Assembly (NCBI GenBank): GCA_037200905.1
Contig: JBBCGN010000001.1
Location: 180,795 to 244,794 of the forward strand
Source: a bacterium
GTDB taxonomy: Bacteria > Patescibacteriota > Minisyncoccia > Phycocordibacterales > UBA9973
Length of the DNA: 64,000 nucleotides
Direction: 5' to 3'
The notes beneath the pieces were generated by a model that saw only the letters and a program-made list of their open reading frames with translations, was not told the origin of the DNA and did not search any database. Every line of letters begins with the position of its first letter. The first letter of the stretch is position 1. Positions 1-17,512 of this stretch are shown one piece after another. A program made the position numbers and the translations under genes.

Positions 1-589
1 AGCGCCTGATCTTCACCAGAACCACCACCGATACCGACAGTGAGGATAGTCGTACCGCCAGCCTTGATGGTGTTTGCAACACTCACAGCAGAAGCGAGAG
101 CAGTTGGTTCGCTGACAGAACCGCTGCTGTTGTGATTCGGGTTACCGTCTGATGCGAAAATGATAAGATCTGGATGAGAAGATGGCTCCGGACTGAAATT
201 GCCTGCAGCTTCGTTCAAGCCCGCCTCCCAGTCTGTAGCGTTTTGACCGACGCCAATGCCATTGATAGTCGACTTGAGGGTAGCTGCATTAGCGCCAGCA
301 TCATCCCCGAATTCGAAGACCGTTTGTGCACTGCCGTCAAACTTTACTACTGAGAATAAAGTCGGAGTCGGAAAGAGCGCAGTAACGAAATCGTTAAAGG
401 CACCTTTCATCGTAGTTAACTCGCCGGCATCGATCGAGCCAGAGTGGTCGAGCACGAGCGCGACATCAAGACCGCATGAATTGCGATCGGAGACACGACT
501 GCCGCCTTCGCAGCATTCAAACCGAAACCAGAAAACACCATTGTGAACATGATCACAAAGGTAGAAACTTTTGATAATATATTCTTCAT
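1..589 (-). CDS. secreted von Willebrand factor A (vWA) domain protein; 3' end lies outside the window; signal peptide and vWA body are in different frames
   Basis: The minus-strand ATG at 589 gives MKNILSKVSTFVIMFTMVFSGFGLNAAKAA, a signal peptide. From about 470 downward another frame reads CGLDVALVLDHSGSIDAGELTTMKGAFNDFV...LIIFASDGNPN...TILTVGIGGG (MIDAS DxSxS plus vWA strands). The vWA frame has no start codon, so I infer a 1-nt indel near 470-500. The gene is absent from the ORF track because it runs off the window edge. Confidence 0.7.
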
Positions 590-1059
590 AATAATTGCGA
601 CGGCTTGCTCCGCCCTGCGGCAGCAAGCAATTAACTAATAAAACGTGGACCTTTAATAAATGAACCTTATAATATAACCCTTTAGACGTTACCGCCTAAT
701 ACCCCACAAAATTACCACACACTATAATATAGGGTCAATAGTATATGGGATAACAACTGCATAAGTCAAGAGCGCTCTTGCAAACATTGGCTTTTGCAGT
801 TGTGGACAATCAGAGACTGGCAGCAGCAGGCTGGGGAAGGTCGGGTCAGATACGGCAACCGCTCTCGCATGACATTCCGAAATTCTTGAGAATATTGGAA
901 TCTTCCTATCACATACCTTTTGCTGCTCGCGAGGGCTGCGGCCATGATAGAGCCGAAATAAAAAAAGCCGGCATCGGCAGAAATAAAACAAAAATTTCCG
1001 ACTCTGGTGAATCGGAAATCGGCGAAACGATTTGTAAAAAAAATGCTGCTGAAAAATTT

Positions 1060-1506
1060 TTAATTCTTTTGGAGAATTTCGACATACTGGGTGTGAAGCA
1101 TGTTCGGCGTAAAAACTTTTTCGAAATTTATGGAAATAAATTTCGAAATGAAAATTTTCCAACCCGGCTGCCAGTAGAGTGAAAATTTTCTGTTGCTCAA
1201 TTGCGGAAATCTCTTGTACAAAGAATTTTCAAAAAATTGATAAATGCACACGCACCTGTCTTCGAGGATGAATACTTTCGCATCGTCATGTTTTCTTTTC
1301 CTTCTGCGGCTTTTTATCTTCTGGATTCTTTTCATCGCGATCATGATGAGCGTGTACGCCACTTTTTCATCGGCATTCATTTCTCCCAAGAGCTTCGCGT
1401 TCGGGGATTCTATTTTGAGCGAAGGAACCTCTGCTATCGGGCCACAATAATTCTTCACTGCCATCTGTACGGCAGCTTGTTCGGAAAACGAGAGTGCCTT
1501 TTTCAT
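1060..1506 (-). CDS. hypothetical protein
   Basis: 148-aa ORF. The first ~85 aa (MKKALSFSEQAAVQMAVKNYCGPIAEVPSL...KRIQKIKSRRRKRKHDD) look protein-like. The tail runs through the AT-rich palindrome region and may be spurious. No recognisable motif. Confidence 0.3.
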   Translation of the reverse strand: MKKALSFSEQAAVQMAVKNYCGPIAEVPSLKIESPNAKLLGEMNADEKVAYTLIMIAMKRIQKIKSRRRKRKHDDAKVFILEDRCVCIYQFFENSLYKRFPQLSNRKFSLYWQPGWKIFISKFISINFEKVFTPNMLHTQYVEILQKN

Positions 1507-1737
1507 AGTCGTGAGTTTTATTTTTATTACGAAGAGGATGTTTCTTGCCTCTAGTATACTCCAACTTCCCCTCTACGGATGAGTGGATAAACCGATGCTC
1601 CCCTTCGGGGCCAAAACTCTGGAAGTGGATAGTTCCGATAGTGAAATGCTTCCCCGTCTGACGCTGCATTTTCTATAGGACACGAGCATCGCCCATGTCC
1701 TTTATAAAGGACACCTCGCGTTTGCCTCAAGCATTAA

Positions 1738-1786
1738 ACAACAAACACCCTGCCACTCATGCAAGAGCGGTCAGGGTGTTTGTTGT
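1738..1786 (-). terminator. long hairpin downstream of the surface-protein gene
   Basis: ACAACAAACACCCTG (1738-1752) pairs perfectly with CAGGGTGTTTGTTGT (1772-1786), a 15-bp stem with a 19-nt loop. It sits 47 nt past the stop at 1833. The T-run is weak. Confidence 0.55.
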
Positions 1787-1832
1787 ATGCAGTTATAGAT
1801 ACGTAGTTGCCTCTTCTAAAGCTTTGAGGGTA

Positions 1833-4269
1833 TTAGATATTCGCAGCCGGAGCCGGGATATGCGTAGGAGTTACGGTAGCGGGAGCAGGAGCCTTTTGGG
1901 AAGCAGCGACGTGAGGAAGCGGAGCCGGAGTCACGCCGGGGTTCTGGCTGAAGTTGATCAGGTTCGCAGGGATAGGCAGGTTGAGGGTCGGGCACATGAT
2001 GTTGTTCACTTCAGTCTGAGTAGTCAGGTAGAAGATGCCGGTAGTGTCGCTGATGCCCCACGGAGCGAGGACGTTCGTATTGCGGGCCGCCTGGAAGTTT
2101 CGGACTGCGGCTTCGGTCTGAGGGCCGTAGACGCCGTCGATAACGAGGCCTGCGTTCATGTAGTCATTCAAGAAAGTCTGGACCTTCTGAACGGTGAGCA
2201 CGTCGTTCGCATAGCCTACGCGGAGGTATTTCTCGACGTAGATGCCGCAGGTGTTCGATGCTGCGAGCACCTGGCCAGCCGGGCGTCCGCCGCTCTTGTG
2301 GGAAGAACCGCCATGATGGGTGCTTCCGCCGCCGTTGTCAGTCGAGTTGGTCTCGTCGTCATCGGTAGAAACATAAGATTCAGCGTTATCCGCATTGCCG
2401 TCTGAGTGACAGCCCGGATCGAGGATATCGATAAGGTTGTCGCCGTCGTTGTCGACGGTATCCGAACACTGATACGTGTCATCGCCGCCTCCGCCCTGGC
2501 CGTCATCGGTCTCGTCATTGTCGGTAGGAACGTACGAACCCTCGTTGTCGGGGTTACCATCGGTGTGGCAGCCTGGATCAGCCTGGTCGATCTTGCCGTC
2601 GCCGTCGTCATCGCCAGTATTCGAGCACTGAGGGACGTCGGTCTCGTCGTTATCGTTCGGGTTGTAGGTATCGGCATGAGTCGGATTGCCGTCAGTGTGG
2701 CAGCCCGGATCGAGGATATCGATCTTGCCGTCGCCGTCGTTGTCAGCACCATCAGAACACTGCGGGTTGCCACCGCCGTTGTGGATAGGATTCACGGTGA
2801 TAGTGACCGTGTCGGTAGCCGTAGCGCCGTCGTTGTCGGTAACGGTAAGCTCGAATACGTACGTGCCCTCGATCAAGTCAGTGATAGTAGGGTTTACGGC
2901 ATCATCAGGATCTACGGTCGAAGGGCCTGAAACTTCGGTCCAGACGTATGAGTCGATCGTACCGTCAGAATCGGCAGAGCCGGAAGCATCAAGGTCTACG
3001 GTGTTCGCAGGAAGGGTGATGATCTGGTCAGGACCCGCGTCCGCTACCGGAGCATTGTTATCGTCCTCAACTTCTTTCAATACGTTGAATCCGATGCAGT
3101 TGTAGGTGTGGCCTGCTTCGATCGGATTTACGAAGTCGTAGTTGTCGTAGTTCAAGACATCGTTGTTGCAGTAAAATTCTGCTGAAACGTCGTCGCTGCG
3201 AGGGTCAGTGGTGTCGCCTGAAAATGGGATGTAGTCGGCGTCAAATTCTTCGCGTACCCATACTTTGGCACCGACAGGGACAGTGGTCGTTCCTTCAAAA
3301 GGAGTCCATGCCGCGCCGCCTTCTTCAACCTGGTCGCCCGGGTTCGCGGTGCCGTCAGGAGCCCACTGGAAAGTCCAGTCGCTCTGCTCGTGACAATCGG
3401 AATGAAGGGCGAGGAATGCGTTCGCGGTAGAAGCCGTGACGTTCGGTCCGCCTGCGCCCCAGTTCGGGAGGTCGGACTCGTTGTCGCAGATGATCTTGGT
3501 AGCGACGATAGTAGCGGTCGGAGTGTTGCTAGAGTCGTCTACGCACTGTCCGCTAGCGAGATGCTTGCCGGCAGGGACAGTAGTCTGGACGCCGTCGATG
3601 TTCGGACAGACGTCCGTCGGAGGAGTAGGAGCGCAGTGCTTGTGCTCGACATAGTCGTACGCGATGAGGTTCGCGGTACCGTAGCTCGGGTTCAAGTGGG
3701 GCCTGGACAGGGCCTCCGTAGAGGTCAGTCTGCCAGTTGCAGGCCAGGTCGGAAGACAAAACTGATGTGGTATGTTCCCGGGCTGTAGGTGTCGGTGACG
3801 TTGTCGGTCAAGACTTGGTCTTCGAATGGTCGGATCGTACCTGCATGGGAGTAGCTTGAGAAGCTCACTTCCACAGGGACAAGCGCCGGCAGGGACTATG
3901 AGGGTAGCGTTCGCGCCGTGCACCGTACCAGTAGCAGTCTTGGTGGTACAGCCCTGGTTGCCGCCATGATTGTTGAAATCGTGGCCGAAGGTGGTGACAG
4001 CGTCATTGTCGCCATTGCTGTCATCCTGATGGGTGTCAGCGTCCTGGCTGTCGCCGCCATGTCCGTTATCGGAACCAGCGTCATGGCTGTCATTGGGACG
4101 GGCCATGATTGTTATTGAAAACGCTTACCACTTTCTTGTGGATGGAGCCGTGCACAGCCTTCGAGTGGCTGCTCGCCGAAACGATAGCGGGATGAGCGAA
4201 ATTCGAGATCGCTGCGAGACCGGCAAAGCCGAAAACCAAAACCATTACTGCGTAGTGAAATTTCTTCAT
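1833..4269 (-). CDS. secreted surface protein: signal peptide, PKD/Ig-like domain, 3 Cys/Asp-rich DNDGDG repeats, C-terminal peptidoglycan-binding domain; several apparent frameshifts
   Basis: Track ORF 1833..4106 lacks a signal peptide. The ATG at 4269 gives MKKFHYAVMVLVFGFAGLAAISNFAHPAIVSA in a frame offset by 1 nt, joining near 4100. Between about 3690 and 3890 the plausible protein text jumps through two other frames (LVPVEVSFSSYSHAGTIRPFEDQVLTDNVTDTYSPGTYHISFVF, then SSDLACNWQTDLYGGPVQAP). PKD-like segment: PVADAGPDQIITLPANTVDLDASGSADSDGTIDSYVWT...VFELTVTDNDGATATDTVTITV. PG_binding_1-like segment: VQTFLNDYMNAGLVIDGVYGPQTEAAVRNFQ. Confidence 0.75.
2340..2765 (-). repeat. three tandem coding repeats (~130-160 nt) of a Cys/Asp-rich motif
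   Basis: Repeat 1: QCSDGADNDGDGKIDILDPGCHTDGNP...NDNDETD. Repeat 2: QCSNTGDDDGDGKIDQADPGCHTDGNP...TDNDETD. Repeat 3: QCSDTVDNDGDNLIDILDPGCHSDGNA...TDDDETN. The DNA units start near 2763, 2632 and 2471 on the minus strand. Confidence 0.85.
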
Positions 4270-5387: not shown

Positions 5388-5433
5388 GCTTGTCGAAAGG
5401 CCTCAAATCAGTTTTTTATACGCAGTGCGGCAC

Positions 5434-5463
5434 TTGCTAAAATGCCCTACGGCGTGGTAATAT
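5434..5463 (+). promoter_or_regulatory. candidate promoter of the pilus operon
   Basis: TTGCTA (5434-5439), 18-nt spacer, TGgTAATAT (extended -10, hexamer 5458-5463). It implies a long (~175 nt) leader. Confidence 0.35.
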
Positions 5464-5644: not shown

Positions 5645-6866
5645 ATGGACGAATTCAACAAAATCATCGAGGGCGAGCTCGCGCACGGCGCGAACCTGTC
5701 TATCATCAACCTGATGGACCATCTCATACAATACGCCTCGGACGTGCACGCCTCCGACATCCACATCGACCCCCAGGAGCACGGCGTGCGCATCCGCTTC
5801 CGCATCGACGGCGTCCTCGAAGACTGCAAGCCCCTGCCGAAAGCCATCCACGGCGAGATCATCTCGCGCATCAAAGTGCTCTCTTCGCTCCGCACGGACG
5901 AGCACGCCGCCCGCCCAGGACGGCCGCTTCCGCAGCACCATCGGCGACAAGACGTCCGTCGACGTGCGCGTGTCCATCGCGCCGACGTATCATGGCGAGA
6001 ACGCCGTGCTCCGGCTCCTCGCCGACAAACGCCGAGAACTTCACCCTCGAGGCCCTCGGCTTCACCAAAGTCGACAGCAGAAGATCCTCTCCGCCATCAA
6101 GCGCCCCTCCGGCATGATCCTCGTCACCGGCCCGACCGGCTCCGGCAAGACCACTACCCTCTACACCCTCATCAAGATGCTCAATTCGAGCGAGATATCC
6201 ATCGTCACTATCGAGGACCCGATCGAGTACGCCGTGGACGGCATCGAGCAGATCCAGGTGAACCCGCGCACGGGCCTCTCGTTCGCGAAACGGCCTGCGC
6301 TCGATCCTTCGCCAGGACCCGAACGTCATCATGGTCGGCGAGATCCGCGACATGGAGACGGCCGGCATCGCCGTGAACACCGCCCTGACCGGACACCTCC
6401 TGCTCTCCACCCTGCACACCAACGACGTCTCTACCACCCTGCCCCGCCTGCTCGACATGAAAGTCGAGCCGTTCCTCGTGGCCTCGACCGTATCCATCGG
6501 CATCGGCCAGCGCCTGGTGCGCAAGATCTGCGAGCACTGCAAGGAGAAGCGCACTATCACCGATGACGCTCTTCGCGACCTCGGCAACCATGTTTCTGCC
6601 AGTACCCTCGGCGATAACAAGGAGTTCTATTACGGCGCGGGCTGCGACAAGTGCGCCGGCACCGGATACAAGGGCCGTCTGGTCATCGCCGAAGTGCTCG
6701 TGGCCGACGAGGAGATGCGCGAAGCCATCGTGCGCAAGTGCTCGGCGAGCGAGATCAAGCAGATCGCCGTCAAGAACGGCATGACGCCGATGCTCGTCGA
6801 CGGATTCCAGAAAGCCCTCCAGGCCTGACCACTGTCGAGGAAGTGCTCCGCGTCACGCACGAATAA
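5645..6866 (+). CDS. pilB: type IV pilus / T2SS assembly ATPase (PilB/GspE family, no N-terminal GSPII domain), broken by about 5 one-nt indels
   Basis: Pieces are track ORFs 5645..6376, 5964..6566, 6331..6828 and 6651..6866. Read across frames the text is ...[90 protein letters not shown]...[10 protein letters not shown]...[29 protein letters not shown]...[10 protein letters not shown]...CEHC...[13 protein letters not shown]...[18 protein letters not shown]. Frame switches occur near 5909-5917, 6027-6029 (AAA), 6066-6085, 6288-6290 (AAA) and 6822-6823 (GG). Confidence 0.9.
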
Positions 6867-6880
6867 TCTTTTACATACTC

Positions 6881-8061
6881 ATGGCCCTCTTCAAGAAGAA
6901 AAAGATCAAGATCATAGCCCAAGACGAACTGCCGGCGAACGAGAAGGTGGTAAAGGCTCCGGTTGCCAAGCCGGCGAAGAAGCGCCCGTTCGAGGGCATG
7001 ACCCTGTTCTCGTCGACGAAGTTCTCCATCAAGAAGCAGACCTTCTTCGCCAAGCGCCTCTCGTTCCTCATCAAGGCCGGGGTACCGATGCTCGAGAGCG
7101 TCATCGTCATCCGCAAGCAGACGAAATCGCGCGGCGAGATAAGGGTCTTCGAGCGCGTCATCGGCGACATCTCGAATGGCCAGACCCTGGCCACCTCTTT
7201 GGGCAAATTCCGCGGCGTCTTCGGCAATTTCGCCATCAACCTCATCAAGGCCGGCGAATCGAGCGGCACGCTCACCCAGAACCTGGCATATCTCGCCGAC
7301 GAGCTGCGCAAGAAAGAGATGCTCAAGAAGAAGATCATGGGCGCCCTGCTCTATCCGATCATCGTGACCGTGGCCACGTTCGGCATCACCGGATTCCTGG
7401 CGGTGTACATCTTTCCGAAGATCCTGCCGATCTTCCAGTCGCTCAACGCCAAGCTTCCCGCTTCGACGCGAGCCATCATCTGGCTCACGGAGACGCTGAA
7501 GAAAGACGGCCTGTGGATCTTCCTCGGGCTGGCGGCCGTCATCACTACTATCGTGCTCCTGGTGAAGAAATCGAAAAAAGTGGCCTTCTTCTGGGACGGG
7601 CTGATACTGCATCTGCCCTTTTCGGCAAGATCGCCAAGAGCTACAACCTGACCAACAGCACCCGTACCCTCGGATTGCTCTTGAAGTCCGGCATCTCGGT
7701 CAACGAAGCCGTGCACATCACCAGCGAGACCACCGAGAACATGCAGTACAAGAAGGCTTTCATCGACCTCAACAAGACCATCATGAAGGGCAAGAGCGTC
7801 TCGGAATACCTGATGCAGAACGAGAGCCTCTTCCCGCCCATGATCGGCCACATGATCTCCATCGGAGAAAAGTCCGGAAACCTCTCCAACACCCTGATCT
7901 ATCTCTCCGAATTCTATGAGAACGAATTCGACGATTTCACCAAGAACCTCTCGAGCGCCATCGAGCCGCTCCTCATGGTCATCATGGGACTCATGGTCGG
8001 CTTCATCGCCATTTCCGTCATCACCCCTATCTATGAAATCACGAACAATCTCAACCGGTAA
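6881..8061 (+). CDS. pilC: type IV pilus platform protein PilC/GspF (two T2SSF domains), one frameshift
   Basis: ORFs 6881..7651 and 7513..8061 join as ...FWDGLILHLP|LFGKIAKSYNLTNSTRTLGLLLKSGISVNEA... at the CCC run 7616-7618. Duplicated GspF-type text is present (FAKRLSFLIKAGVPMLESV / LGLLLKSGISVNEAV), with TM segments. Confidence 0.9.
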
Positions 8062-8554
8062 TAAGGGGTTCACGCTGATCGAAATGCTGATCGTGGTCGG
8101 CATCATCACCATCGTCGGCGGCATCAGCCTGTTCTTCGGCTTCGATTCCCTGCGCGGCTATTCCTTCCACTCGGACAGGGACGTGCTCGTCTCGGCTTTG
8201 CAGCATGCTCGCGCGGAAGCCATGGCGAACATCTGCCGCGGAGCTTCCGGCGACTGCACGACAGGAAAATCGCACGGAGTAAAGATCCGTCCCGATGAAT
8301 ACCCCGACTCGTTCGTCGTTTTCCAAGGCACGAGCTATGCGGCTCATCTGACTACGAGCGACAAGAGCTTCGATGCGGTATTGGAATCCAAGCCGAGCAT
8401 CACCTACTCGGGTGCGGATGAAGTCGTTTTTACCCAGCTCTCTGGCGAGACGAATTCCGCGAACGAGATCGCCATCACCGTCACTGACCACAACACCGGC
8501 AAGACCGATACCATCAGGATAAACCACGCAGGCCAAATAAAATGGGACAACTAA
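8033..8554 (+). CDS. prepilin-type N-terminal cleavage/methylation domain protein (minor pilin, GspH/FimT-like)
   Basis: The internal Met of ORF 7916..8554 gives MKSRTISTGNKG|FTLIEMLIVVGIITIVGG, the class III signal. The start overlaps the pilC 3' end. Confidence 0.8.
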   Translation: MKSRTISTGNKGFTLIEMLIVVGIITIVGGISLFFGFDSLRGYSFHSDRDVLVSALQHARAEAMANICRGASGDCTTGKSHGVKIRPDEYPDSFVVFQGTSYAAHLTTSDKSFDAVLESKPSITYSGADEVVFTQLSGETNSANEIAITVTDHNTGKTDTIRINHAGQIKWDN

Positions 8555-10068
8555 CTGACAAGCAAAAAGCCTTTTCCACCATCGAGCTCATGATCGCCAT
8601 GGCCATCATCGTCATGGTCCTGTCTGCCGTCGTCATGACCTCCTTCGGCTCACAATCGTTCCTGATCGGCAGCCAGACGAACGCCGAAGGCATGAAGCTG
8701 GCCCAAGGGCTCGTGGAAGAACAGCAAGCCTTGGCCCGAAAAGATTTCAATCTCGTGAATTCGATAGCATCGCACATATATACCGATGCAAGCGGCTTTG
8801 CTTGGACGGAAGAAGTGAGTGTAGAAAATCCCAAAAACCCGAGCACGGACAAATACGACTATCTGGCCAAAGAAGTCACAGTGAAAGTTTCCTGGCAGGA
8901 CCAGCGCAAGCAGGAACGAGACGTGACCCTCAAGACACTTGTTTCCAACCTCGATAATTCGAGTTCGAGCGCGACATGCAACTCTTCTCCATCGGGCAAT
9001 TGGACTTCGCCCGATATGCAGTCTTATAGCCTTTCAGCTATCGGTGCAGGAATAAATAATCCAGTCACGGGCCTTGACGCTTTTCAGGATACTGTCGGAG
9101 ACAAGCTCTATGTGACCACAGCGACATCGGGAACCGTTGATAATAAATTTTTAATATTTGACCTGGCTGACAACGGCGAACCGTCGTACAAGAACGGCAT
9201 CGATACGTCGCTCAAAGGCGCAAACGCCCTGACCGTAGTCTCCCCTGCTACCGGAGAAGAGAAGACGTATGCCTTTCTCGCAAACGCGGCCACGCCCACC
9301 AATTGGACCTGCCTAGAGAGCGACGACTGTTCCCAATTTCAAGTAGTGGATGTCAGCAACCCGTCTTCACTCTCGAGCCCTACCAATCTCAAGCTGAACT
9401 GGATCTCAGGCAGCGGCTCGACAGGAAACGGCAAAAGCATCTACTATCGCAACGGATACGTTTTCCTCGGGCTCGTCACCGGCGGCGGGCCGGAATTCAA
9501 CGTCATCGACGTGCACAATCCCCATGCCCCGCAAGCAGTCGGCAAATACTCTGTCGGCCGCACCGTAAACGCAATTTACGCGAATGGAAATTATGCCTAT
9601 CTCGCGACGGACGACAATGCCGGCGGCAATACCCTTTTGGTCCTCGACATCAGCAATCCTACCACTCCAGCGCTGAAGTGGCCGAAGGCAGGCTCGCCTA
9701 TCATGGGTTCGACGTTCGGCTACGGCAACGCGATCACCGCGGTGGCAAATTCGCTCTATTTCGGCATGAGCAACAACTCTTCCAATCCTGAATTCTATAC
9801 GCTGGCAAACCCCAATCCCGCCGTGGCGGCTCCGACGACGAGTACGCCGACAGTAGACCTCCCAAGCGTGAGCGTCAAAGGCATCGCCATCAGAGACTAT
9901 CTGGCGAACATCCTGCGTTCCGACAACAAGCTCGCCATATACAACATGACCACATCGGCAGAACATGACATAAGCCTGCCGTCTAACGGCACCGCCCTCG
10001 ACTGCCAGGGCAATTATCTCTATGCGGGAGACGCGGGCGGGCACATCACAGTAGTAACCGGCTCATAA
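8542..10068 (+). CDS. large pseudopilin: prepilin N-terminus fused to an LVIVD-repeat beta-propeller
   Basis: N-terminus MGQLTDKQKA|FSTIELMIAMAIIVMVLSAVV. Repeated LVIVD-type units: KLYVTT...KFLIFDLAD, TYAFLANA...QFQVVDVSNP, GYVFLGLVTGGGPEFNVIDVHNP, NYAYLATDDNAGGNTLLVLDISNP. Confidence 0.8.
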   Translation: MGQLTDKQKAFSTIELMIAMAIIVMVLSAVVMTSFGSQSFLIGSQTNAEGMKLAQGLVEEQQALARKDFNLVNSIASHIYTDASGFAWTEEVSVENPKNPSTDKYDYLAKEVTVKVSWQDQRKQERDVTLKTLVSNLDNSSSSATCNSSPSGNWTSPDMQSYSLSAIGAGINNPVTGLDAFQDTVGDKLYVTTATSGTVDNKFLIFDLADNGEPSYKNGIDTSLKGANALTVVSPATGEEKTYAFLANAATPTNWTCLESDDCSQFQVVDVSNPSSLSSPTNLKLNWISGSGSTGNGKSIYYRNGYVFLGLVTGGGPEFNVIDVHNPHAPQAVGKYSVGRTVNAIYANGNYAYLATDDNAGGNTLLVLDISNPTTPALKWPKAGSPIMGSTFGYGNAITAVANSLYFGMSNNSSNPEFYTLANPNPAVAAPTTSTPTVDLPSVSVKGIAIRDYLANILRSDNKLAIYNMTTSAEHDISLPSNGTALDCQGNYLYAGDAGGHITVVTGS

Positions 10069-10070
10069 AC

Positions 10071-10612
10071 ATGAAGAACAAAAAATACAATTCGGGATTC
10101 ACGCTGGTCGAGACGATGATCTACGTCGCGCTCTTTGCCATCATCATGTCGGGCGCCATCGTCTCTATCTACGGCATCATCAGCTCGAGCACCCGCAACG
10201 CGACCAAAGCCATGGTGCAGGAGGAGGCAGTTTCCTCGTCGGCAAGATCGACTGGGTCTTGAGCAAGGCCGCGCATGCATCGGTGAGCGCAGACGGGCTC
10301 TCGCTCACTATCCAGACTTTCGACAGCCCTGCAGTCATCATGGAAATTTCCGTATCGTCTGACGGAGAAAGCATGAGCATCGACACCGATGTCGTCGGCG
10401 GGATATACGACGGGCAGAATCTGAATAATTCCAACGTGACCATCACCTGCAATCCGCCGGCAGGAGGGTCCGGATGCTTCACGTACAATACCGGTACCGG
10501 AGACGGCATCAACCCCGAGAGCGTGACCGCGGATTTCACCCTCAATACCAGAACGAGCGAAGGCTTGTCTTATTCCCAGGAATTTTCTACTATAAAATAT
10601 CTAAGAAAGTAG
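10071..10612 (+). CDS. prepilin-type minor pilin (PilW/PulJ-like), one frameshift
   Basis: MKNKKYNSG|FTLVETMIYVALFAIIMSGAIV. ORFs 10071..10262 and 10259..10612 join as ...MVQEEG|SFLVGKIDWVLSKAAHASVS if one G is restored at 10226-10227. Confidence 0.8.
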
Positions 10613-10632
10613 TTCCTCCTTTCCTGCCTGCC

Positions 10633-13242
10633 ATGACGAAAATAACTAACAAAACCAAAGAAAGAATGAGAAACCGACAGGAAGGCTTCATCGCCCTCGT
10701 CACGGTGCTCATCCTCATGACGGTCCTGATGATGCTCATGTTCGCGAACAATACCTCGAGCTATTTCGCCCGCTTCGATGCCCTTGGCAGCGAGAACAAG
10801 AGGATCAGCCTCGGCCTTTCGGAATCATGCTCGAATGCCGCCCTGTTGCGGCTGGCACAGAACTATGATTACGCAGGCAGTGAGACGATCAATGTCGGAG
10901 ACGATGCGTGCTACATAGAGCATATCAGCAGCGCGAAAAATTACGATATCTATGGCACGGAGATCAGCAAGACAGCGACCATCAACACGAAAGCCCAGCA
11001 CCCTTCCGTCAACGGCTCATGGAGCACGAACAGCATCGTGGCGACCATCAAGGATCCCACGTATACCACCACCGCCATCGCGCCGACATGCACGCTGACT
11101 CTCGACAAGAGCGGCACCATCAACAGCGGACAATCATTAACGGCAACCTGGACAGTTTCCAACAGTCCGACTTCTTTCACTATACGCGGCATCACGAATG
11201 CTGCGCCCAACCCGATCCCGAGCGACGGAGATCCTTCGGGGGGTTCGAAGACTTTCCATCCGACCGAGAGCACCACCTATGTGGGCTTGGTCACGGGCGC
11301 AAACGGCCTGCAAGGACAATGCGTAGTATCGATCTCGGTCAAGCCTTCCATCGGCGAATGCGCGAATACGGTCATGATGCTCGACCGCACCGCGAGCATG
11401 AACGACGAAGCCATTGCCGATGAAAAAGCCGCGGCAGAATCATTGCTCGATTTGTATAACGAGCTAGGCATCCCTCCGCTCACCGGCATCGGCCGCTTCG
11501 GCAAGGACAGCAAGACCAGCGCGGAAATCATCCCCGCCATCGGTTCCATACCGGAAGCGAGCATGACGAGCTCGTACGGAGAAAAATCTGCGCCCGGCAG
11601 CCTCGGCCCGTATGCGCCATCGAATGCATCGGCCGGATGGACGAACCCGAACAACGGCCGTGCCCACGAATCGCCTGCCGCTCTATACGCCACGAGCACG
11701 ACAAGCGGGCAGAAGCAGAATTATTACAATTTCGGCTTCAATACGAATTCGTCGAACACTATCCCGTCGAGCGCGACCATCCAAGGCATAGAAGTCACCA
11801 TCGACGGCAAGATAGCGGGCACGGCATCGCAGGATTCGGCGAAAACATATCCGACAAGCACGGGCAATTTCAATTCCTGGACGGCAAATAATGCAAACAA
11901 TTGCAGAAGCACTCCCACGAACACAAAAGGAACGACATGCGTGAACGGCACTGACGCCAGTGATAATACGTACCTAGTTGCACCAGCGCCTACCCCTACG
12001 CCCACACAGGCCACACAGACTTTTATGCTGCCGAACATGAGCATTCCGCAAGGTTCGAAAATAAATTCCGTGGCATTCTTCGCTGTAGTGAAAAATGGCA
12101 GCGCCGGAACCAGCAATGTAAAACTGGTGCTAGAAAACAGCACCGGCCCAGGACATCAATGGCTCGACAGCGGGCATGCGTTATCATCGACTATGTATAC
12201 GACCATACAATACAATAATACACCGACAAATATAAACCCAAGCACCGGCATAGCATGGACGATTGACGACGTGAACACATGGGCTGGAAACGGCAAATTA
12301 CGCTTTGGCATACAGCGTACGAATACGAACAGCGTCGCGCCGCGAGTGACGCAGATCTATGCGATCGTGAACTATTACTCCCCTTCGATCAACGTGGACC
12401 TGTCATGGAACAACGGAGCGAACGGCACCTATACCACCGGAAGCGGGACAGGAGTAAAGACGGTCGTTCTCACCGCCACCGACCCCGGCACGGGAGTCAT
12501 CCTCGGAGGCGCGACCGACCTGTGGGACGAACCGGGATGGGACGATTTTGATTTCGATAACGGCAGCTTCCTCGTGCGGCTGACAAACAATGCCGCAACG
12601 GGCAATACTCTTTCTATCGATTATGTGAAAGTAAAAGTCTATTATACCGGACCGTCGGGCCTCTATGCTTCGATCAAAGAAGGACTCGATAACAGCATAG
12701 GCAGTTATACCAACTTGGGCGATGCCATAAAGTACGGCGCCACGGAACTCGGCACGGTCAATGACGGCAAGAAAAAAGTGCTGATACTCATCTCCGACGG
12801 CACGAATGTGAACTTGGATTCTTCAAATGCTACAGGCAGCACGAACACCACGCAGTCCGCCATCAACTGGGCCAAGACCGAAGCCACGAATGCGAAGAAC
12901 GGCTCCGGCGGCCTGCCGCAGACGGAAATCTATACCATCCACTTCGGCAGTACGGCATCTGACGGAACATACAATCCTTCGCCGCGGAATTTCATAGCCG
13001 GCCTCGCCACGAGTTCCGCAAACGATAAAGCGACTGCTGCCCTGGAAAACTCGGACGATGATCATTTCTTCATCGCTCCAAGCTCCTCGGACATGCAGAA
13101 AGTCTTCAATACCATCGGCAAGCTCGCCTGTCCCGCCCTCACGAACCCAGGCTCGCCTGAACCGATTCCCGACCCGCCGTCTCCTCCGCCTCCACCACCA
13201 CCGGTGTCTATCGGCTCATGGGACGAAGTCATCACGCCATAG
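10633..13242 (+). CDS. PilX_N-like N-terminal anchor plus a vWA domain interrupted by a ~400-aa beta-rich insert, with a Pro-rich C-terminus (putative pilus-associated adhesin)
   Basis: I take Met54 of ORF 10474..13242 as the start: MTKITNKTKERMRNRQEGFIALVTVLILMTVLMMLMF. First vWA half: TVMMLDRTASMNDEAIADEKAAAESLLDLY...GIGRFG. Second half about 400 aa later: SYTNLGDAIKYG...KKKVLILISDGTNVN...IYTIHFG...DHFFIAPSSSDMQKVF. Tail: PEPIPDPPSPPPPPPPVSIG. Confidence 0.75.
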   Translation: MTKITNKTKERMRNRQEGFIALVTVLILMTVLMMLMFANNTSSYFARFDALGSENKRISLGLSESCSNAALLRLAQNYDYAGSETINVGDDACYIEHISSAKNYDIYGTEISKTATINTKAQHPSVNGSWSTNSIVATIKDPTYTTTAIAPTCTLTLDKSGTINSGQSLTATWTVSNSPTSFTIRGITNAAPNPIPSDGDPSGGSKTFHPTESTTYVGLVTGANGLQGQCVVSISVKPSIGECANTVMMLDRTASMNDEAIADEKAAAESLLDLYNELGIPPLTGIGRFGKDSKTSAEIIPAIGSIPEASMTSSYGEKSAPGSLGPYAPSNASAGWTNPNNGRAHESPAALYATSTTSGQKQNYYNFGFNTNSSNTIPSSATIQGIEVTIDGKIAGTASQDSAKTYPTSTGNFNSWTANNANNCRSTPTNTKGTTCVNGTDASDNTYLVAPAPTPTPTQATQTFMLPNMSIPQGSKINSVAFFAVVKNGSAGTSNVKLVLENSTGPGHQWLDSGHALSSTMYTTIQYNNTPTNINPSTGIAWTIDDVNTWAGNGKLRFGIQRTNTNSVAPRVTQIYAIVNYYSPSINVDLSWNNGANGTYTTGSGTGVKTVVLTATDPGTGVILGGATDLWDEPGWDDFDFDNGSFLVRLTNNAATGNTLSIDYVKVKVYYTGPSGLYASIKEGLDNSIGSYTNLGDAIKYGATELGTVNDGKKKVLILISDGTNVNLDSSNATGSTNTTQSAINWAKTEATNAKNGSGGLPQTEIYTIHFGSTASDGTYNPSPRNFIAGLATSSANDKATAALENSDDDHFFIAPSSSDMQKVFNTIGKLACPALTNPGSPEPIPDPPSPPPPPPPVSIGSWDEVITP

Positions 13243-13245
13243 CAT

Positions 13246-13274
13246 TTGCTTATTCAACCGATGTGTGATATAAA
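13246..13274 (+). promoter_or_regulatory. candidate promoter of the major pilin gene
   Basis: TTGCTT (13246-13251), 17-nt spacer, TATAAA (13269-13274). The leader contains the hairpin CTCCGC-cgaat-GCGGAG (13323-13340). Confidence 0.4.
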
Positions 13275-13357
13275 TATCGCTATAAAATATGTCGAATTAG
13301 TAACATTTATTATCAGTTAACTTGCTCCGCCGAATGCGGAGGTAAAAACAAATCATT

Positions 13358-13930
13358 ATGAATTTCAAGAAATCGAACAGGCAGTCTCTCGCCATCATGG
13401 GGGGGGTAAAAGGCAATAAGGGTTTCACCCTCATCGAAATCCTCATCGTTATCGGCATCATCGCCATTCTCGCAGCTATCGTCATCATCGCTATCAACCC
13501 TGCCAAGCAGTTCGCACAGGCTCGCAACACGCAGCGTACTGCGAACGTGAACGCGATCTTGAACGCTATCGGCCAGCGTATTGCAGACAATAAAGGTAAG
13601 TTCGACGGTGATTTTGCAATAGGTACTCCTGCCGTTACCTACACATGCCCAACACTGCCAGACATAGATGCAGGTGACATTCCTACTACTAATATACATA
13701 TGGGACCAGAATTGGATACTACACCAGCAGAAGACAACCTTTCATGTCTAGTACCAACCTATATCCCCACTTTGCCTTACGACCCTTCTCTATCAGACAA
13801 GCCAGCGGGTTCAGACTCAATTGGATACCAGGTTGGCGTAGATCCACAAGGAAGAGTCACTGTATGTTCTACAGAAGCTGCAACTGAGAAAGCAATCCCA
13901 GATCCAGAAGAAATCTGCGTCACTCGCTAA
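13358..13930 (+). CDS. type IV pilin (probable major subunit)
   Basis: ...GGVKGNKG|FTLIEILIVIGIIAILAAIVIIAINP, the canonical class III signal and hydrophobic helix. A C-terminal Cys pair (CPTLP...CSTE...ICV) is present. It is the last gene of the operon and is followed by a strong terminator. The start could be Met1 or Met14. Confidence 0.85.
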   Translation: MNFKKSNRQSLAIMGGVKGNKGFTLIEILIVIGIIAILAAIVIIAINPAKQFAQARNTQRTANVNAILNAIGQRIADNKGKFDGDFAIGTPAVTYTCPTLPDIDAGDIPTTNIHMGPELDTTPAEDNLSCLVPTYIPTLPYDPSLSDKPAGSDSIGYQVGVDPQGRVTVCSTEAATEKAIPDPEEICVTR

Positions 13931-13948
13931 ATTTCTTCCCTCATTCAA

Positions 13949-13975
13949 AAAGCCCCTCACGGGGCTTTTTGTTTT
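13949..13975 (+). terminator. rho-independent terminator of the pilus operon
   Basis: AGCCCC-tcac-GGGGCT (13951-13966) followed by TTTTTGTTTT. Confidence 0.85.
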
Positions 13976-13993
13976 ATTACTGAGATAAAAATT

Positions 13994-14021
13994 AATAAAA
14001 GGGCTGTCCGTAGACAGCCCC
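13994..14021 (-). terminator. minus-strand terminator-like hairpin (T4 of a stack)
   Basis: GGGCTGTC (14001-14008) pairs with GACAGCCC (14013-14020). On the minus strand it is followed by TTTTATTAAT. Confidence 0.55.
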
Positions 14022-14141
14022 AGAGCTGGATGTTCTTTGAATGAAGAGAAACTGTAAAAGATCTAATTCTTTTCACGCATATTGGATACAAGACTGCACC
14101 ACAACAAGCTAACTATAATACAAAAGGCAGAGAAAGCAAAT

Positions 14142-14174
14142 AAAAAAAACCGCCCTCATACGAAAAAGGGCGGT
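14142..14174 (-). terminator. minus-strand terminator-like hairpin (T3)
   Basis: ACCGCCCT (14149-14156) pairs with AGGGCGGT (14167-14174). On the minus strand it is followed by T8. Confidence 0.65.
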
Positions 14175-14283
14175 ACTTTCCTATGAAAATTCACCAAAAA
14201 GAACTGTGGTTCCTCACCGGACACTGGACATGCATATATATCTCGTCTGCAATATATAGCACATATTTGAAAATAAAGCAAAC

Positions 14284-16330: not shown

Positions 16331-17512
16331 TTACGCATTCGCCACCCTCTTCACCTCGTCGAGCGTGGTGATGCCGGCGACCACTTTTTCCAGTCCTGCG
16401 TCCCAGAGCGTGCGCTTCTGCTTCTCCTTGAATATCTCGAGCAGCGAGGAGTTCGGCTTGTCGAGGATGGTGGAGCGGATCTCTTCGTCGAAATTCAGGA
16501 TCTCGTAGATGCCGACGCGGCCGATATAGCCGGTCTTGTGGCACTTGTCGCAGCCGGCGCCCTTGCGGAAGTTGTTGTAGTTCGTGACATGCGGCATCAG
16601 GCTCTTCTCTTCCTCGGTCGGGCGGTACGGCTCGGCGCAGGCGTCGCAGACCTTGCGCACCAGGCGGGACGACACCACGCCGGCGATGCCGTAGGCGATG
16701 ACTGACCGCGGCACCTCCATCTCCATCATGCGCGATACCACGCCACGGATGTCGAAGGTATGGAATGTCGAGAATATGAGCATGCCGGAGAGCGATGACT
16801 GCGAAGTGATCTGCGCGGTCTCCGCATCGCGGATCTCGCCCACCATGATGATGTCCGGGTCCTGGCGCAGGACGTACTTGATGGCCTTCGAGAAATCGAG
16901 GCCGATATCCTGGTTTATCTGGAGCTGGCGGATGCCTTCGATCTCGAATTCCACCGGATCCTCGATGGTGACGATGTTCTTCTCCACCTTGTTGCACGAG
17001 TTCAGGAAGGAATACAGGAGCGAGGTCTTGCCGGAGCCGGTCGGGCCGGTGATGAGGATCAGGCCGTTCGGGCGGTAGATGAGCTTCTTCACGTCCTCGA
17101 GCTGGGTCGGGGTGAAGCCGAGATCCTCGATCTTCATGACCACGTCTTCCCTGTTGAGCACGCGGAGCGCCAGAGCCTCACCATGGGCCGTCGGGAACGT
17201 GGAGATGCGCAGGTTGTACGTCTGGCCCTTGGCCTTGGATTCGAATTCGAAATGGCCGTCCTTCGGCAGGCGGAACTCGGTGATGTCGATCTGCGACAGG
17301 ACCTTCAGGCGGGAGATGACGTGACTGCGCAGGTCTTTCGGCAGGGCGAGCTCGTGATGGAGGATGCCGTCGATGCGGTAGCGCACGTTGAATATTTTCT
17401 TGCCCGGGTCGAGGTGAATATCGCTCGCGCGTTTCGCGATGGCGTTCTCGATGATGTAGTCGATGAGAAATTCCGGCTCGATCTGATCGATGACTTTCGT
17501 GATGTCTTCCAT
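16331..17512 (-). CDS. PilB/GspE-family secretion ATPase (second, intact copy)
   Basis: 393 aa. Motifs: ASDIHLDP, Walker [22 protein letters not shown], Walker [21 protein letters not shown], tetra-Cys CDAC...GCDKCHKTGYIGR, and C-terminal AGITTLDEVKRV. Confidence 0.9.
   Translation of the reverse strand: MEDITKVIDQIEPEFLIDYIIENAIAKRASDIHLDPGKKIFNVRYRIDGILHHELALPKDLRSHVISRLKVLSQIDITEFRLPKDGHFEFESKAKGQTYNLRISTFPTAHGEALALRVLNREDVVMKIEDLGFTPTQLEDVKKLIYRPNGLILITGPTGSGKTSLLYSFLNSCNKVEKNIVTIEDPVEFEIEGIRQLQINQDIGLDFSKAIKYVLRQDPDIIMVGEIRDAETAQITSQSSLSGMLIFSTFHTFDIRGVVSRMMEMEVPRSVIAYGIAGVVSSRLVRKVCDACAEPYRPTEEEKSLMPHVTNYNNFRKGAGCDKCHKTGYIGRVGIYEILNFDEEIRSTILDKPNSSLLEIFKEKQKRTLWDAGLEKVVAGITTLDEVKRVANA

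What the first reader, a model, noticed from the sequence alone, without database searches (positions are those of the whole stretch)
5645..13930. Compact type IV pilus-like operon with very large accessory pilins and no pilD, pilM-O or pilT in the window
Seven co-oriented genes with short gaps or overlaps encode a PilB-type ATPase, PilC, three class-III-signal pseudopilins, a PilX_N/vWA protein and a major pilin. They end in a strong terminator. Two of the putative pilus subunits are 508 and 869 aa long, whereas minor pilins are usually around 150-200 aa. A secreted vWA protein and a PKD/peptidoglycan-binding surface protein lie directly upstream (1-4269). If the host is an episymbiotic CPR-type cell, this looks like an adhesion or host-contact apparatus rather than a plain motility pilus.
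Basis: partly seen in the sequence, partly recalled or inferred. Interest (0 to 1): 0.55.

Follow-up and report, generated by a model that had tools for sequence, protein, structure and literature searches.

The report
Conserved CPR pilus operon, modular tip pilins
This is an ordinary but uncharacterised seven-gene type IV pilus cassette of an ultrasmall Patescibacteria (CPR) bacterium: two of its minor pilins carry large adhesin-like domains, the layout recurs in at least 80 related species, and the apparent gene breaks are sequencing errors.

Summary
The seven co-oriented genes at 5645-13930 are real: a short PilB/GspE ATPase (406 aa), PilC, four minor pilins and a major pilin, followed by a strong terminator.

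An independent short-read assembly is identical over 8.8 kb and restores pilC and the third pilin, so those two breaks are assembly errors. The five pilB breaks have the same homopolymer pattern but were not checked this way.

The source is a MAG whose nearest relatives are all Paceibacteria-type Patescibacteria.

Gene order pilB-pilC-pilin-(about 500-aa LVIVD pilin)-pilin-cap pilin-major pilin recurs in 80 species. All seven genes are in order in 28 of the 39 loci with enough flank.
- **508-aa pilin:** a pilin stalk plus a roughly seven-bladed beta-propeller (AF2 pLDDT 90). It is the family norm.
- **869-aa protein:** an expanded form of a usually 130-200-aa, Glu5-less cap pilin. Ig-like, vWA and beta-sandwich modules are inserted before a conserved last strand.

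PilX_N is not supported. No pilD, pilMNO or pilT lies in the window, but a second PilB-like ATPase does.

Most likely function: a pilus displaying tip adhesins for host contact (inferred). Modular pilins and CPR pili are already known.

The parts
5415..5443 (+). Promoter-like site in the AT-rich gap upstream of pilB (weak evidence)
   Evidence: Sigma-70-like match, 9 of 12, with TG. It follows a terminator-like hairpin at 5344-5370 that ends the unrelated 227-aa ORF. The number of such sites in the region is not above the shuffled expectation.
5645..6866 (+). pilB/gspE-type assembly ATPase. It is 406 aa after repair and lacks the N-terminal GSPII/MshEN domain. In the window it is split by five single-base homopolymer indels near 5912, 6029, 6077, 6290 and 6822.
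   Evidence: Pfam T2SSE 402 bits. NCBIfam GspE 484.7 and PilB 476.2 bits, both below the equivalog cut-offs. Walker [10 protein letters not shown], Walker B IMVGEIRD, His box and CxxC...CxxC are read directly. Five +/-1 nt corrections in C, A, C, A and G runs give one 406-aa ORF, the modal length of homologues (82% best identity).
6881..8061 (+). pilC/gspF platform protein, 391-393 aa, with one missing C at 7616 in the window
   Evidence: Pfam T2SSF twice, 178.6 bits. It is intact (391 aa) in the Logan assembly L002, which differs from the window only by indels.
8033..8554 (+). Minor pilin 1, 173 aa, class III signal KG|FTLIE (FimU/GspH position)
   Evidence: N_methyl 28.7 bits and TIGR02532 26.2 bits; weak GspH N-terminal match. 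Glu5 is invariant in 60 orthologues.
8542..10068 (+). Minor pilin 2, 508 aa: a pilin module (helix 13-67, sheet 75-135) fused to a roughly seven-bladed LVIVD beta-propeller (158-506). Signal KA|FSTIE.
   Evidence: LVIVD 44.9 bits; N_methyl 20.4 bits. AF2 pLDDT 90, pTM 0.86, 28 propeller strands. Foldseek gives 7-8-bladed propellers at E~1e-11. The gene is present at this position, at 460-730 aa, in 80 species.
10071..10612 (+). Minor pilin 3, 180 aa, signal SG|FTLVE, with one missing G at 10226 in the window
   Evidence: N_methyl 30.8 bits. It is intact (180 aa) in L002. Glu5 is invariant in 60 orthologues.
10633..13242 (+). Cap-type minor pilin, 869 aa, signal-like EG|FIALV without Glu5. Layout: pilin-like module (17-140), Ig-like domain (152-237), vWA split into 245-289 and 678-832 (DRTAS 251-255, SDG 721-723) by nested beta-sandwich inserts (~320-672), poly-Pro (851-857), conserved last strand IGSWDEV (860-866).
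   Evidence: AF2 pLDDT 69.7, pTM 0.40. The family profile hits vWA domains in PDB at E=1.4e-7. Homologues carry VWA/VWA_2. The profile of short orthologues matches residues 8-140, and the last 14 aa add 6-8 bits. The C-terminal SW[EQ]E motif is shared by short and long forms.
13243..13396 (+). AT-rich spacer with a hairpin (CTCCGC-CGAAT-GCGGAG) before the major pilin gene. It may be a separate promoter or 5' UTR.
   Evidence: Read directly from the sequence; not tested further.
13397..13930 (+). Major pilin candidate, 177 aa (alternative start 13358 gives 190 aa), signal KG|FTLIE
   Evidence: N_methyl 32.2 bits and TIGR02532 32.1 bits; N-terminal matches to GspG, PilA and ComGC. Median identity to orthologues is 49%, the highest of the five pilin-type genes; only PilB (61%) is more conserved. 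'Major' is inferred from sequence type and position.
13946..13981 (+). Intrinsic terminator closing the operon
   Evidence: 11-bp stem with 6 GC pairs, 4-nt loop, then TTTTATTACT.
16331..17512 (-). Context, not shown to belong: second PilB/GspE-type ATPase, 393 aa
   Evidence: T2SSE; GspE 439.6 bits against pilT_fam 161 bits; has CxxC...CxxC. 41% identical to the cassette PilB. It is not a conserved neighbour in relatives.
1..4269 (-). Context: two secreted surface proteins. One is a vWA protein (window 1-626, running off the window). The other is a PKD/PG_binding protein (1833-4106) whose signal peptide is split off as ORF 4090-4269.
   Evidence: VWA E=2.8e-16. K319L-like_PKD 86.7 bits and PG_binding_1 31.5 bits. 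Homologues of the PKD protein lie within 10 kb of the cassette in about 10 of 80 loci.

Best explanation
The region is a complete, self-contained type IV filament (type IV pilus-like) cassette of a Paceibacteria-type Patescibacteria bacterium.

**Proposed mechanism**
- A short PilB/GspE-type hexameric ATPase drives the PilC platform, which extracts processed pilins from the membrane and polymerises them.
- The four minor pilins form the priming complex that ends up at the pilus tip. The Glu5-less sixth gene product sits on top as the cap, as GspK does in type II secretion.
- The major pilin, encoded last and probably with its own promoter, builds the shaft.
- Two tip subunits are modular. The 508-aa pilin carries a roughly seven-bladed beta-propeller that is conserved in all relatives.
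- The 869-aa cap carries Ig-like, vWA (MIDAS-like) and beta-sandwich modules. They are inserted between its pilin-like core and its conserved last strand, and this cargo differs greatly between species.
- The pilus therefore most likely presents adhesins at its tip for contact with a host cell or surface.
- The prepilin peptidase and any retraction ATPase are encoded outside the cassette.

**Shown:** gene identities, domain content, conservation of gene order, and that two of the seven breaks are assembly errors.

**Inferred:** that the five pilB breaks are also errors, tip location, cap role, adhesion, and which pilin is the major one.
For: - Family assignments come from HMM searches.
- Four prepilins have G/A|F-x-x-x-E5 signals, and they are the only such ORFs in 64 kb. 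Glu5 is invariant in orthologues of pilins 1 and 3 and nearly invariant in pilin 2, but absent from the whole gene-6 family.
- The AF2 model of the 508-aa protein has pLDDT 90 with a pilin stalk plus propeller.
- vWA is supported at family level, with the conserved motif DxTxS...SDG.
- Gene order B-C-1-L-3-X-A is found in 80 species. All seven genes are in order in 28 of 39 loci with enough flank, and pilB-pilC upstream of the LVIVD pilin (pilin 1 detected in 38) in all 39.
- Gene 6 ranges from 103 to 1408 aa, yet keeps the same N-terminal module and C-terminal SW[EQ]E strand.
- The frameshifts are artefacts. Logan contig L002 has 0 mismatches over 8.8 kb and restores pilC and pilin 3. All five pilB shifts are +/-1 nt in homopolymers, and repair gives the modal 406 aa. 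Housekeeping genes are split in the same way.
- A terminator closes the operon.
- Published precedent: in Saccharibacteria TM7x, a propeller-bearing PilX2 without a PilD signal is needed for host binding (PMC12206443). A vWA-bearing pilin is a tip adhesin in S. sanguinis (PMC8179133).
Against: - There are no functional data for this cassette or any orthologue.
- No prepilin peptidase, PilT or PilMNO was found in the window or as a conserved neighbour, so processing and retraction are unverified.
- An intact pilB of this organism was not recovered from any assembly; the best hit is 82% identical.
- The 869-aa model is only of medium confidence (pTM 0.40), and its nested topology rests on alignment and secondary structure.
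- The equivalence of each minor pilin to GspH/I/J/K could not be shown by sequence. PDB profile hits cover only the N-terminal helix.
- The propeller is well conserved in length and motifs. That fits a structural or docking role as well as it fits ligand binding.
Confidence: 0.7

Rival explanations
1. It is a competence (DNA-uptake) pseudopilus of the ComG type. It would be a short filament that captures DNA and hands it to ComEC, supplying nucleotides to a reduced genome.
For: The composition equals a comG operon: ATPase, platform and five pilins, with no PilMNO, no PilT and the peptidase encoded elsewhere. The ATPase is short, like ComGA, and gives a partial ComGA match of 242.7 bits. CPR are reported to combine pili with competence genes (PMC6744442). 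The cassette is near-universal in this lineage, as expected for a core nutritional function.
Against: The ComGA and ComGB equivalog thresholds are not met, and GspE/PilB and GspF score about twice as high. The major pilin is encoded last and is 177 aa, not a ~100-aa ComGC encoded first. The vWA, Ig-like and propeller cargo, and its turnover between species, fit surface recognition better than DNA binding. The two roles are not mutually exclusive.
Confidence: 0.2
2. It is a type II secretion-like pseudopilus that pushes proteins, for example the neighbouring vWA and PKD surface proteins, through the envelope rather than forming an external pilus.
For: The best NCBIfam scores are to GspE (484.7 bits) and GspF (280.4 bits). 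The set of one major plus four minor pilins with a Glu5-less cap mirrors GspG-H-I-J-K. Secreted surface proteins lie next to the cassette here and in about 10 of 80 relatives.
Against: All Gsp equivalog cut-offs are missed. No secretin or GspC/L/M was found, and CPR are regarded as lacking an outer membrane (PMC6744442). The 500-870-aa tip modules make no sense on a periplasm-confined piston. The neighbouring genes are not conserved.
Confidence: 0.06
3. It is a decaying, non-functional operon, and the seven frameshifts are real pseudogenising mutations.
For: As assembled, pilB, pilC and the third pilin are interrupted. No intact pilB of this organism was found.
Against: Both frameshifts that could be checked are absent from an independent assembly that is otherwise identical over 8.8 kb. 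All seven are +/-1 nt in homopolymers. Essential genes (SMC, tRNA synthetases) are split in the same way. Repaired PilB is 82% identical to intact homologues over its full length and keeps all motifs.
Confidence: 0.03

Closest known systems
Type IV pili of Saccharibacteria (Nanosynbacter lyticus TM7x T4P-1/T4P-2; Grossman et al., ISME J 2025, PMC12206443)
   Same: Both are pili of a Patescibacteria cell without an outer membrane. Both have minor pilins with expanded globular parts. In both, a PilX-type subunit without a canonical PilD signal carries a beta-propeller (PilX2) or jelly-roll (PilX1). PilX2 is needed for host binding.
   Different: The TM7x loci include pilM/N/O, pilD and pilT; this cassette has none of them. 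Here the propeller (LVIVD type, not RCC1) sits on a Glu5-bearing pilin at the second minor-pilin position, and the Glu5-less cap carries vWA, Ig-like and beta-sandwich modules. PilB here is a 406-aa short form. Direct sequence homology to the TM7x pilins was not tested.
Modular type IV pilins (S. sanguinis PilB with vWA and PilC with lectin; Raynaud et al., PNAS 2021, PMC8179133)
   Same: A pilin module carries a grafted adhesion module that is compatible only with the pilus tip. The vWA module has a MIDAS-type site. That paper's InterPro survey already lists many CPR pilins, including one with 12 IPR013211 motifs. I take IPR013211 to be the LVIVD repeat from my own knowledge; I did not check it here.
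   Different: In S. sanguinis the module is appended C-terminally through a short loop. Here the cap's cargo is inserted before the last strand and is itself nested. S. sanguinis T4P has PilT and PilMNO.
PilY1 plus the FimU-PilVWX priming complex of T4aP (P. aeruginosa, M. xanthus)
   Same: Four minor pilins sit in one operon. Tip-displayed vWA and beta-propeller modules are used for adhesion.
   Different: PilY1 is a non-pilin that docks on the minor pilins and holds both modules in one chain. Here the two module types are fused to two different pilins, and no PilY1-type Pfam domain matched. This cassette has no PilMNOPQ or PilT.
ComG competence pilus operon of Firmicutes
   Same: Seven genes: ATPase, platform and five pilins. 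The ATPase is short. The peptidase is encoded elsewhere. There are no PilMNO and no PilT in the operon.
   Different: ComGA/ComGB thresholds are not met. The major pilin is last, not first. Huge modular minor pilins are present.
GspK, the cap pseudopilin of type II secretion
   Same: It lacks Glu5. It is the last and largest minor pilin. An extra domain is inserted into the pilin fold rather than appended.
   Different: No sequence or Pfam match. The cargo here is vWA, Ig-like and beta-sandwich, and its size varies from zero to ~1270 aa between species.

Membership tests
Type IV filament superfamily system | PilB/GspE-family secretion ATPase with Walker A/B, Asp and His boxes | tested here: met
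   Pfam T2SSE 402 bits over residues 19-403 of the repaired protein. The motifs were read directly.
Type IV filament superfamily system | Polytopic platform protein with two T2SSF domains | tested here: met
   T2SSF 178.6 bits in two stretches. It is intact in L002.
Type IV filament superfamily system | Pilins with a class III signal peptide (G/A at -1, hydrophobic helix, Glu5) | tested here: met
   Three pilins are above the N_methyl threshold, one is borderline (20.4 against 21.2 bits) and one lacks Glu5.
Type IV filament superfamily system | Prepilin peptidase (Peptidase_A24) | tested here: inconclusive
   None was found in the 64-kb window or as a conserved neighbour in 80 loci. The remaining ~256 kb of the contig and the rest of the MAG could not be searched.
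Type IVa pilus (T4aP) | PilB equivalog with an N-terminal GSPII/MshEN domain | tested here: not met
   TIGR02538 scores 476.2 bits against a cut-off of 675.65, and the match starts at model position 180. The protein is 406 aa with no N-terminal domain.
Type IVa pilus (T4aP) | PilM/PilN/PilO alignment proteins and the PilT retraction ATPase with the system | tested here: not met
   All are absent from the window and from the flanks of orthologous cassettes. The second ATPase is GspE/PilB-like; pilT_fam scores 161 bits against a cut-off of 319. They may lie elsewhere in the genome.
ComG competence pilus | ComGA and ComGB equivalogs | tested here: not met
   NF041000 scores 242.7 bits (cut-off 300). 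NF041012 scores 145.1 bits (cut-off 240).
ComG competence pilus | Operon of ATPase, platform and five pilins without PilMNO or PilT | tested here: met
   The gene order differs, with the major pilin last.
Type II secretion system | GspE and GspF equivalogs, a secretin, and GspC/L/M | tested here: not met
   TIGR02533 scores 484.7 bits (cut-off 630.25). TIGR02120 scores 280.4 bits (cut-off 424). No secretin or GspC/L/M appears among the Pfam hits in the window.
Modular type IV pilins (sensu Raynaud et al. 2021) | N-terminal pilin module plus a domain not specific to pilus biology | tested here: met
   508 aa: N_methyl-like signal plus LVIVD, and an AF2 pilin stalk plus propeller. 869 aa: pilin-like N-terminus plus vWA and Ig-like modules.
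Pfam PilX_N (PF14341) | Match to the PilX N-terminal model | tested here: not met
   No hit at E<=0.01 for the 869-aa protein. No hit at E<=0.1 for any of 47 short orthologues.
vWA domain with MIDAS | VWA model match and a DxSxS...T...D metal site | tested here: inconclusive
   The protein itself scores 17.4 bits (cut-off 23.8). The family profile hits PDB vWA domains at E=1.4e-7, and homologues carry PF00092/PF13519. The motif is DRTAS (Thr in place of the first Ser) plus SDG. Metal binding was not testable.
PilY1/PilC tip adhesin | C-terminal PilY1-type propeller domain on a non-pilin protein | tested here: not met
   No such Pfam hit. The propeller is LVIVD-type and is fused to a pilin.

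The most novel reading that the evidence does not exclude
The seven-gene cassette may be a distinct, lineage-wide class of type IV filament in Paceibacteria-type CPR bacteria, with three defining properties. First, it runs on a short PilB and PilC alone, without PilMNO. Second, it splits the two PilY1-type adhesion modules (beta-propeller and vWA) onto two different tip pilins. Third, it uses a cap pilin with an insertion slot before its last strand as a swappable cargo site (0 to ~1270 aa, with nested domains) that sets host specificity, while the conserved propeller provides a constant docking or binding function.
Probability: 0.3. Interest if true: 0.55.

Novelty: new member of a known kind. 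Interest (0 to 1): 0.35.

Why it matters
Paceibacteria-type CPR bacteria are abundant and almost entirely uncultivated, and how they find and hold their hosts is unknown. This cassette is one of their most conserved surface machines. The LVIVD-pilin profile finds thousands of cluster representatives.

It pairs a constant propeller pilin with a cap pilin whose cargo changes between species. If the cap cargo is the host-recognition element, its sequence could be used to predict or compare host ranges from metagenomes.

For this particular window the practical lesson is different. The locus is a normal member of that family, and its broken genes are artefacts of a long-read-type assembly.

Tried and rejected
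- **Intact pilB elsewhere.** I searched for an intact PilB of the same organism in other assemblies. The best hit was 82% identical, so the pilB repairs rest on homologues and the homopolymer pattern only.
- **Wasted look-ups.** Two encoding-contig look-ups failed because my minus-strand coordinates included the stop codon and dropped the start codon.
- **Minor-pilin equivalence.** Profile searches of the three small minor-pilin families against PDB sequences gave only generic N-terminal helix matches or nothing. Equivalence to GspH/I/J/K or FimU/PilV/W/X is by position and Glu5 status only.
- **Foldseek of the 869-aa model.** It returned only generic Ig-like and beta-sandwich or glycan-binding surface proteins at weak scores. 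It does not name the inserted domains.
- **PilX_N.** Tested and rejected.
- **Conserved flanking genes.** Clustering the flanks of 80 loci gave no family in more than 12 loci. The top families are ABC ATPase, DNA pol III, CAP, glycosyltransferase, HisRS and FtsX, none pilus-related.
- **GxGD-K motif scan.** A regex scan for prepilin peptidase motifs found nothing credible. The motif was recalled from memory, so this is weak evidence.
- **Second ATPase as PilT.** Rejected on NCBIfam scores and on its tetracysteine motif.
- **Literature.** Searches for LVIVD plus pilin, and for Parcubacteria/Paceibacteria pilus adhesins, found no description of this cassette.

Full report
**1. What is in the sequence**

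On the + strand between 5645 and 13930 there are seven genes. The gaps run from -26 to +20 nt, except for a 154-nt AT-rich spacer before the last gene.

HMM searches identify the following:
- a PilB/GspE-type ATPase (Pfam T2SSE, 402 bits);
- a PilC/GspF platform protein (T2SSF twice, 178.6 bits);
- a 173-aa prepilin (N_methyl 28.7 bits);
- a 508-aa protein with a prepilin-like N-terminus (KA|FSTIE; N_methyl 20.4 bits, just under the 21.2 cut-off) and an LVIVD repeat (44.9 bits);
- a 180-aa prepilin (30.8 bits);
- an 869-aa protein with only a sub-threshold VWA hit (17.4 bits);
- a 177-aa prepilin (32.2 bits).

A hairpin with an 11-bp stem and a T-run lies at 13946-13971, 16 nt after the last stop codon. 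A motif scan of all six frames shows that the four Glu5-bearing prepilins of this operon are the only ones in the 64-kb window.

**2.

As assembled, three of the seven genes are interrupted:
- pilB is spread over three reading frames (ORFs 5645-6376, 5964-6566, 6331-6828);
- pilC is split at about 7616;
- the third pilin is split at about 10226.

The window is part of NCBI assembly GCA_037975565.1, contig JBBCBH010010871.1 (window position = record position - 19995), a MAG labelled only 'bacterium'. A Logan assembly of run SRR28211700 contains an 8,839-bp contig (L002) covering window 6822-15664. It has 0 mismatches. It has one more C at 7616 and one more G at 10226, both in homopolymer runs. 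That gives an intact 391-aa PilC and an intact 180-aa pilin.

For pilB no second assembly was found; the best database hit is 82% identical. Comparison with that homologue places all five shifts at +/-1 nt in C, A, C, A and G runs. Correcting them gives one ORF of 406 aa, the modal length of hundreds of homologues, with all ATPase motifs intact.

Other genes in the window are split the same way:
- SMC;
- a class II tRNA synthetase;
- pheT;
- the signal peptides of the two upstream surface proteins.

I conclude that the breaks are homopolymer errors of the assembly, not pseudogenes. This is shown for two of the seven sites and inferred for the other five.

**3. Organism and conservation**

The closest relatives of the 508-aa protein, the 869-aa protein and PilB all come from Patescibacteria MAGs. 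They are labelled Paceibacterota, Pacebacteria, Kaiser-, Nomura-, Adler-, Jorgensen-, Wolfebacteria and similar.

A scan of one genome per GTDB species with the 508-aa family returned 80 loci. Six-frame ORFs of those loci were compared with the seven window proteins, with these results:
- The same order (pilB, pilC, pilin 1, LVIVD pilin, pilin 3, gene 6, major pilin) is the modal arrangement. Most deviations are truncation at contig ends.
- Among the 39 loci with enough flank, 28 show all seven genes in order at BLASTP E<=1e-5. All 39 have pilB and pilC upstream of the LVIVD pilin, with pilin 1 detected in 38.
- The LVIVD pilin is about 460-730 aa in 75 of the 78 loci where its ORF is complete (median 503); the three shorter ORFs all come from one frameshifted long-read locus (L073).
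- PilB is about 406 aa throughout.
- No flanking gene family occurs in more than 12 of 80 loci, and none of the frequent ones is pilus-related.

The cassette is therefore a self-contained, vertically conserved unit. An exhaustive profile search finds 8,865 cluster representatives at E<=1e-30. More than 100 of the best 150 are full-length 470-560-aa pilin-plus-propeller proteins.

**4. The two large subunits**

*The 508-aa pilin.* AlphaFold2 with a 44-sequence alignment gives pLDDT 90 and pTM 0.86. The model has a long N-terminal helix (13-67), a small pilin sheet (75-135) and 28 further strands (158-506), which corresponds to about seven four-stranded blades. Foldseek against the PDB returns seven- and eight-bladed propellers at E about 1e-11, with nothing more specific.

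*The 869-aa protein.* The model is of medium quality (pLDDT 69.7, pTM 0.40). Its secondary structure and the family alignment agree on the layout below.

| Residues | Element |
|---|---|
| 17-76 | N-terminal helix, preceded by EG\|FIALV (no Glu5) |
| 84-140 | pilin-like sheet |
| 152-237 | Ig-like sandwich |
| 245-289 | first part of the vWA fold, with DRTAS at 251-255 |
| ~320-672 | about 350 residues of beta-sandwich modules that appear to be nested |
| 678-832 | rest of the vWA fold, with SDG at 721-723 |
| 851-857 | poly-proline stretch |
| 860-866 | final strand IGSWDEV |

The vWA assignment is weak for this protein alone. It is supported at family level: homologues carry PF00092/PF13519, and the family profile hits collagen VI vWA domains at E=1.4e-7. 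PilX_N is not supported for this protein or for 47 short orthologues.

**5. Gene 6 is a cap pilin with a cargo slot**

In the 80 loci the sixth gene is bimodal. About three quarters encode 103-200-aa proteins and about one quarter encode 650-1408-aa proteins. Short and long forms share two features:
- the G|[FY][IV]AL N-terminus without Glu5;
- a C-terminal [IVL]xSW[EQ]E motif. In the long forms this motif follows a poly-proline linker.

A profile built from the short forms matches residues 8-140 of the 869-aa protein at about 116 bits. Appending the last 14 residues extends the match to the end of the profile and adds 6-8 bits. Shuffled tails add 0-2 bits.

The cargo is therefore inserted before the last strand of the pilin-like fold rather than appended. 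This is the logic known for GspK, which also lacks Glu5 and caps the pseudopilus (established knowledge). The propeller pilin is constant in all species, while the cap's cargo is highly variable. That pattern suggests a constant function for the propeller and a species-specific one for the cap. This is inference.

**6. Missing partners**

Precomputed and new Pfam scans cover the whole window. They show no Peptidase_A24, PilM/N/O or secretin.

A second T2SSE ATPase lies at 16331-17512 on the minus strand, between an ABC transporter and a cupredoxin gene. It is 41% identical to the cassette PilB and has the tetracysteine motif. It scores 439.6 bits on GspE against 161 bits on the PilT family model, so it is not a PilT. 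It is not a conserved neighbour in relatives.

One relative (L074) has a canonical long pilB (with an MshEN domain), a pilT-like gene and pilC 3.6 kb downstream of its cassette. At least some of these organisms therefore own a second, T4aP-like machine. CPR genomes in general are reported to encode PilD, PilT and PilMNO (PMC6744442). Whether this genome does could not be tested.

**7. How it most likely works**

It is a type IV filament machine. Short PilB energises PilC. The four minor pilins prime assembly and stay at the tip, with the Glu5-less gene-6 protein as cap. The major pilin forms the shaft. The tip then exposes a propeller and a vWA/Ig-like/beta-sandwich array for binding.

Gene identities and conservation are shown. 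Tip location, cap role and adhesion are inferred from three sources: the general architecture of minor-pilin complexes, the vWA tip pilin of S. sanguinis (PMC8179133), and the propeller-bearing PilX2 that is required for host binding in Saccharibacteria (PMC12206443).

The main rival is a ComG-like DNA-uptake pilus, which the gene composition resembles. The two roles are not exclusive. A secretion pseudopilus and a decayed operon are unlikely.

**8. Comparison and novelty**

The system works like a type IV pilus with modular tip pilins. It does not meet the equivalog thresholds for T4aP PilB, ComGA/ComGB or GspE/GspF. It lacks PilMNO and PilT, so I do not file it under T4aP, Com or T2SS specifically.

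Modular pilins, including many from CPR and one with LVIVD-type motifs, have been catalogued (PMC8179133). CPR pili with propeller-bearing PilX proteins have been studied genetically (PMC12206443). I found no paper describing this particular cassette.

The locus is a new member of a known kind. The family-level features deserve study but are not surprising in principle. They are the fixed propeller on the second minor pilin, the insertion slot in the cap pilin, and the minimal machinery.

Interest 0.35.

Noticed in passing
window 46729-48929 (-), 50996-52253 (+), 57664-59111 (-), 4090-4269 / 1833-4106 (-), 1-626 (-): Several genes outside the operon are also split into adjacent or overlapping ORFs: SMC, a class II tRNA synthetase, pheT, and the signal peptides of the PKD and vWA proteins. 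This points to assembly-wide single-base indel errors. Gene calls on this MAG should not be trusted for pseudogene inference.
   Followed up: partly
window 16331-17512 (-): A second short PilB/GspE-type ATPase (393 aa, tetracysteine motif, 41% identical to the cassette PilB). It lies in a minus-strand run with an ABC transporter (17548-19296) and a cupredoxin (15771-16244). No platform protein or pilins lie next to it, and its partner system is unknown.
   Followed up: partly
window 1833-4106 (-) and alignment A2 columns ~2230-2270: A Cys/Asp-rich repeat (C..DDDGDG.ID..DP.CH.DGN...Y.P.D.DE) occurs three times in the upstream PKD/peptidoglycan-binding protein. It also occurs near the C-terminus of gene-6 homologues from other species (P0127, P0131-P0133, P0135, P0137). 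This suggests module exchange between surface proteins and the cap pilin.
   Followed up: no
window 13243-13396: A 154-nt AT-rich spacer lies before the major pilin gene. It contains a hairpin (CTCCGC-CGAAT-GCGGAG) and TATAAA-like boxes, and may be an internal promoter or regulatory 5' UTR that allows higher expression of the major pilin. The start codon is ambiguous (13358 or 13397).
   Followed up: no
L074 15409-19792 (+): A Parcubacteria-group MAG carries a canonical long pilB (582 aa, MshEN domain), a pilT-like ATPase (357 aa) and pilC 3.6 kb downstream of its seven-gene cassette. Two type IV filament systems therefore coexist in at least some relatives.
   Followed up: partly
window 6902-6907: The NCBI and Logan assemblies differ by one copy of a tandem AAGATC in the 5' end of pilC. 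The change is in frame (two residues, Lys-Ile) and may be a real strain variant or an assembly difference.
   Followed up: no
window 19581-20681 (+), 23375-29313: Genes for de novo nucleotide synthesis are present: a 1274-aa FGAM synthase (purL), purM, purN and a dihydroorotate dehydrogenase. Together with the cupredoxin gene (15771-16244, -) noted in the second-ATPase item, this is more biosynthetic and redox capacity than is usually ascribed to CPR genomes.
   Followed up: no
window 8542-10068 (residues C146 and C488 of the 508-aa pilin): Two cysteines, at the start and the end of the propeller, are nearly invariant across 44 homologues. They could form a disulfide that closes the propeller ring. 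This was not checked in the model.
   Followed up: no
window 4704-5387 (+): A 227-aa ORF lies directly upstream of pilB with its own terminator-like hairpin (5344-5370). It has no Pfam or NCBIfam hit and no homologue in any of the 80 related loci. Its function is unknown, and it is probably not part of the cassette.
   Followed up: partly
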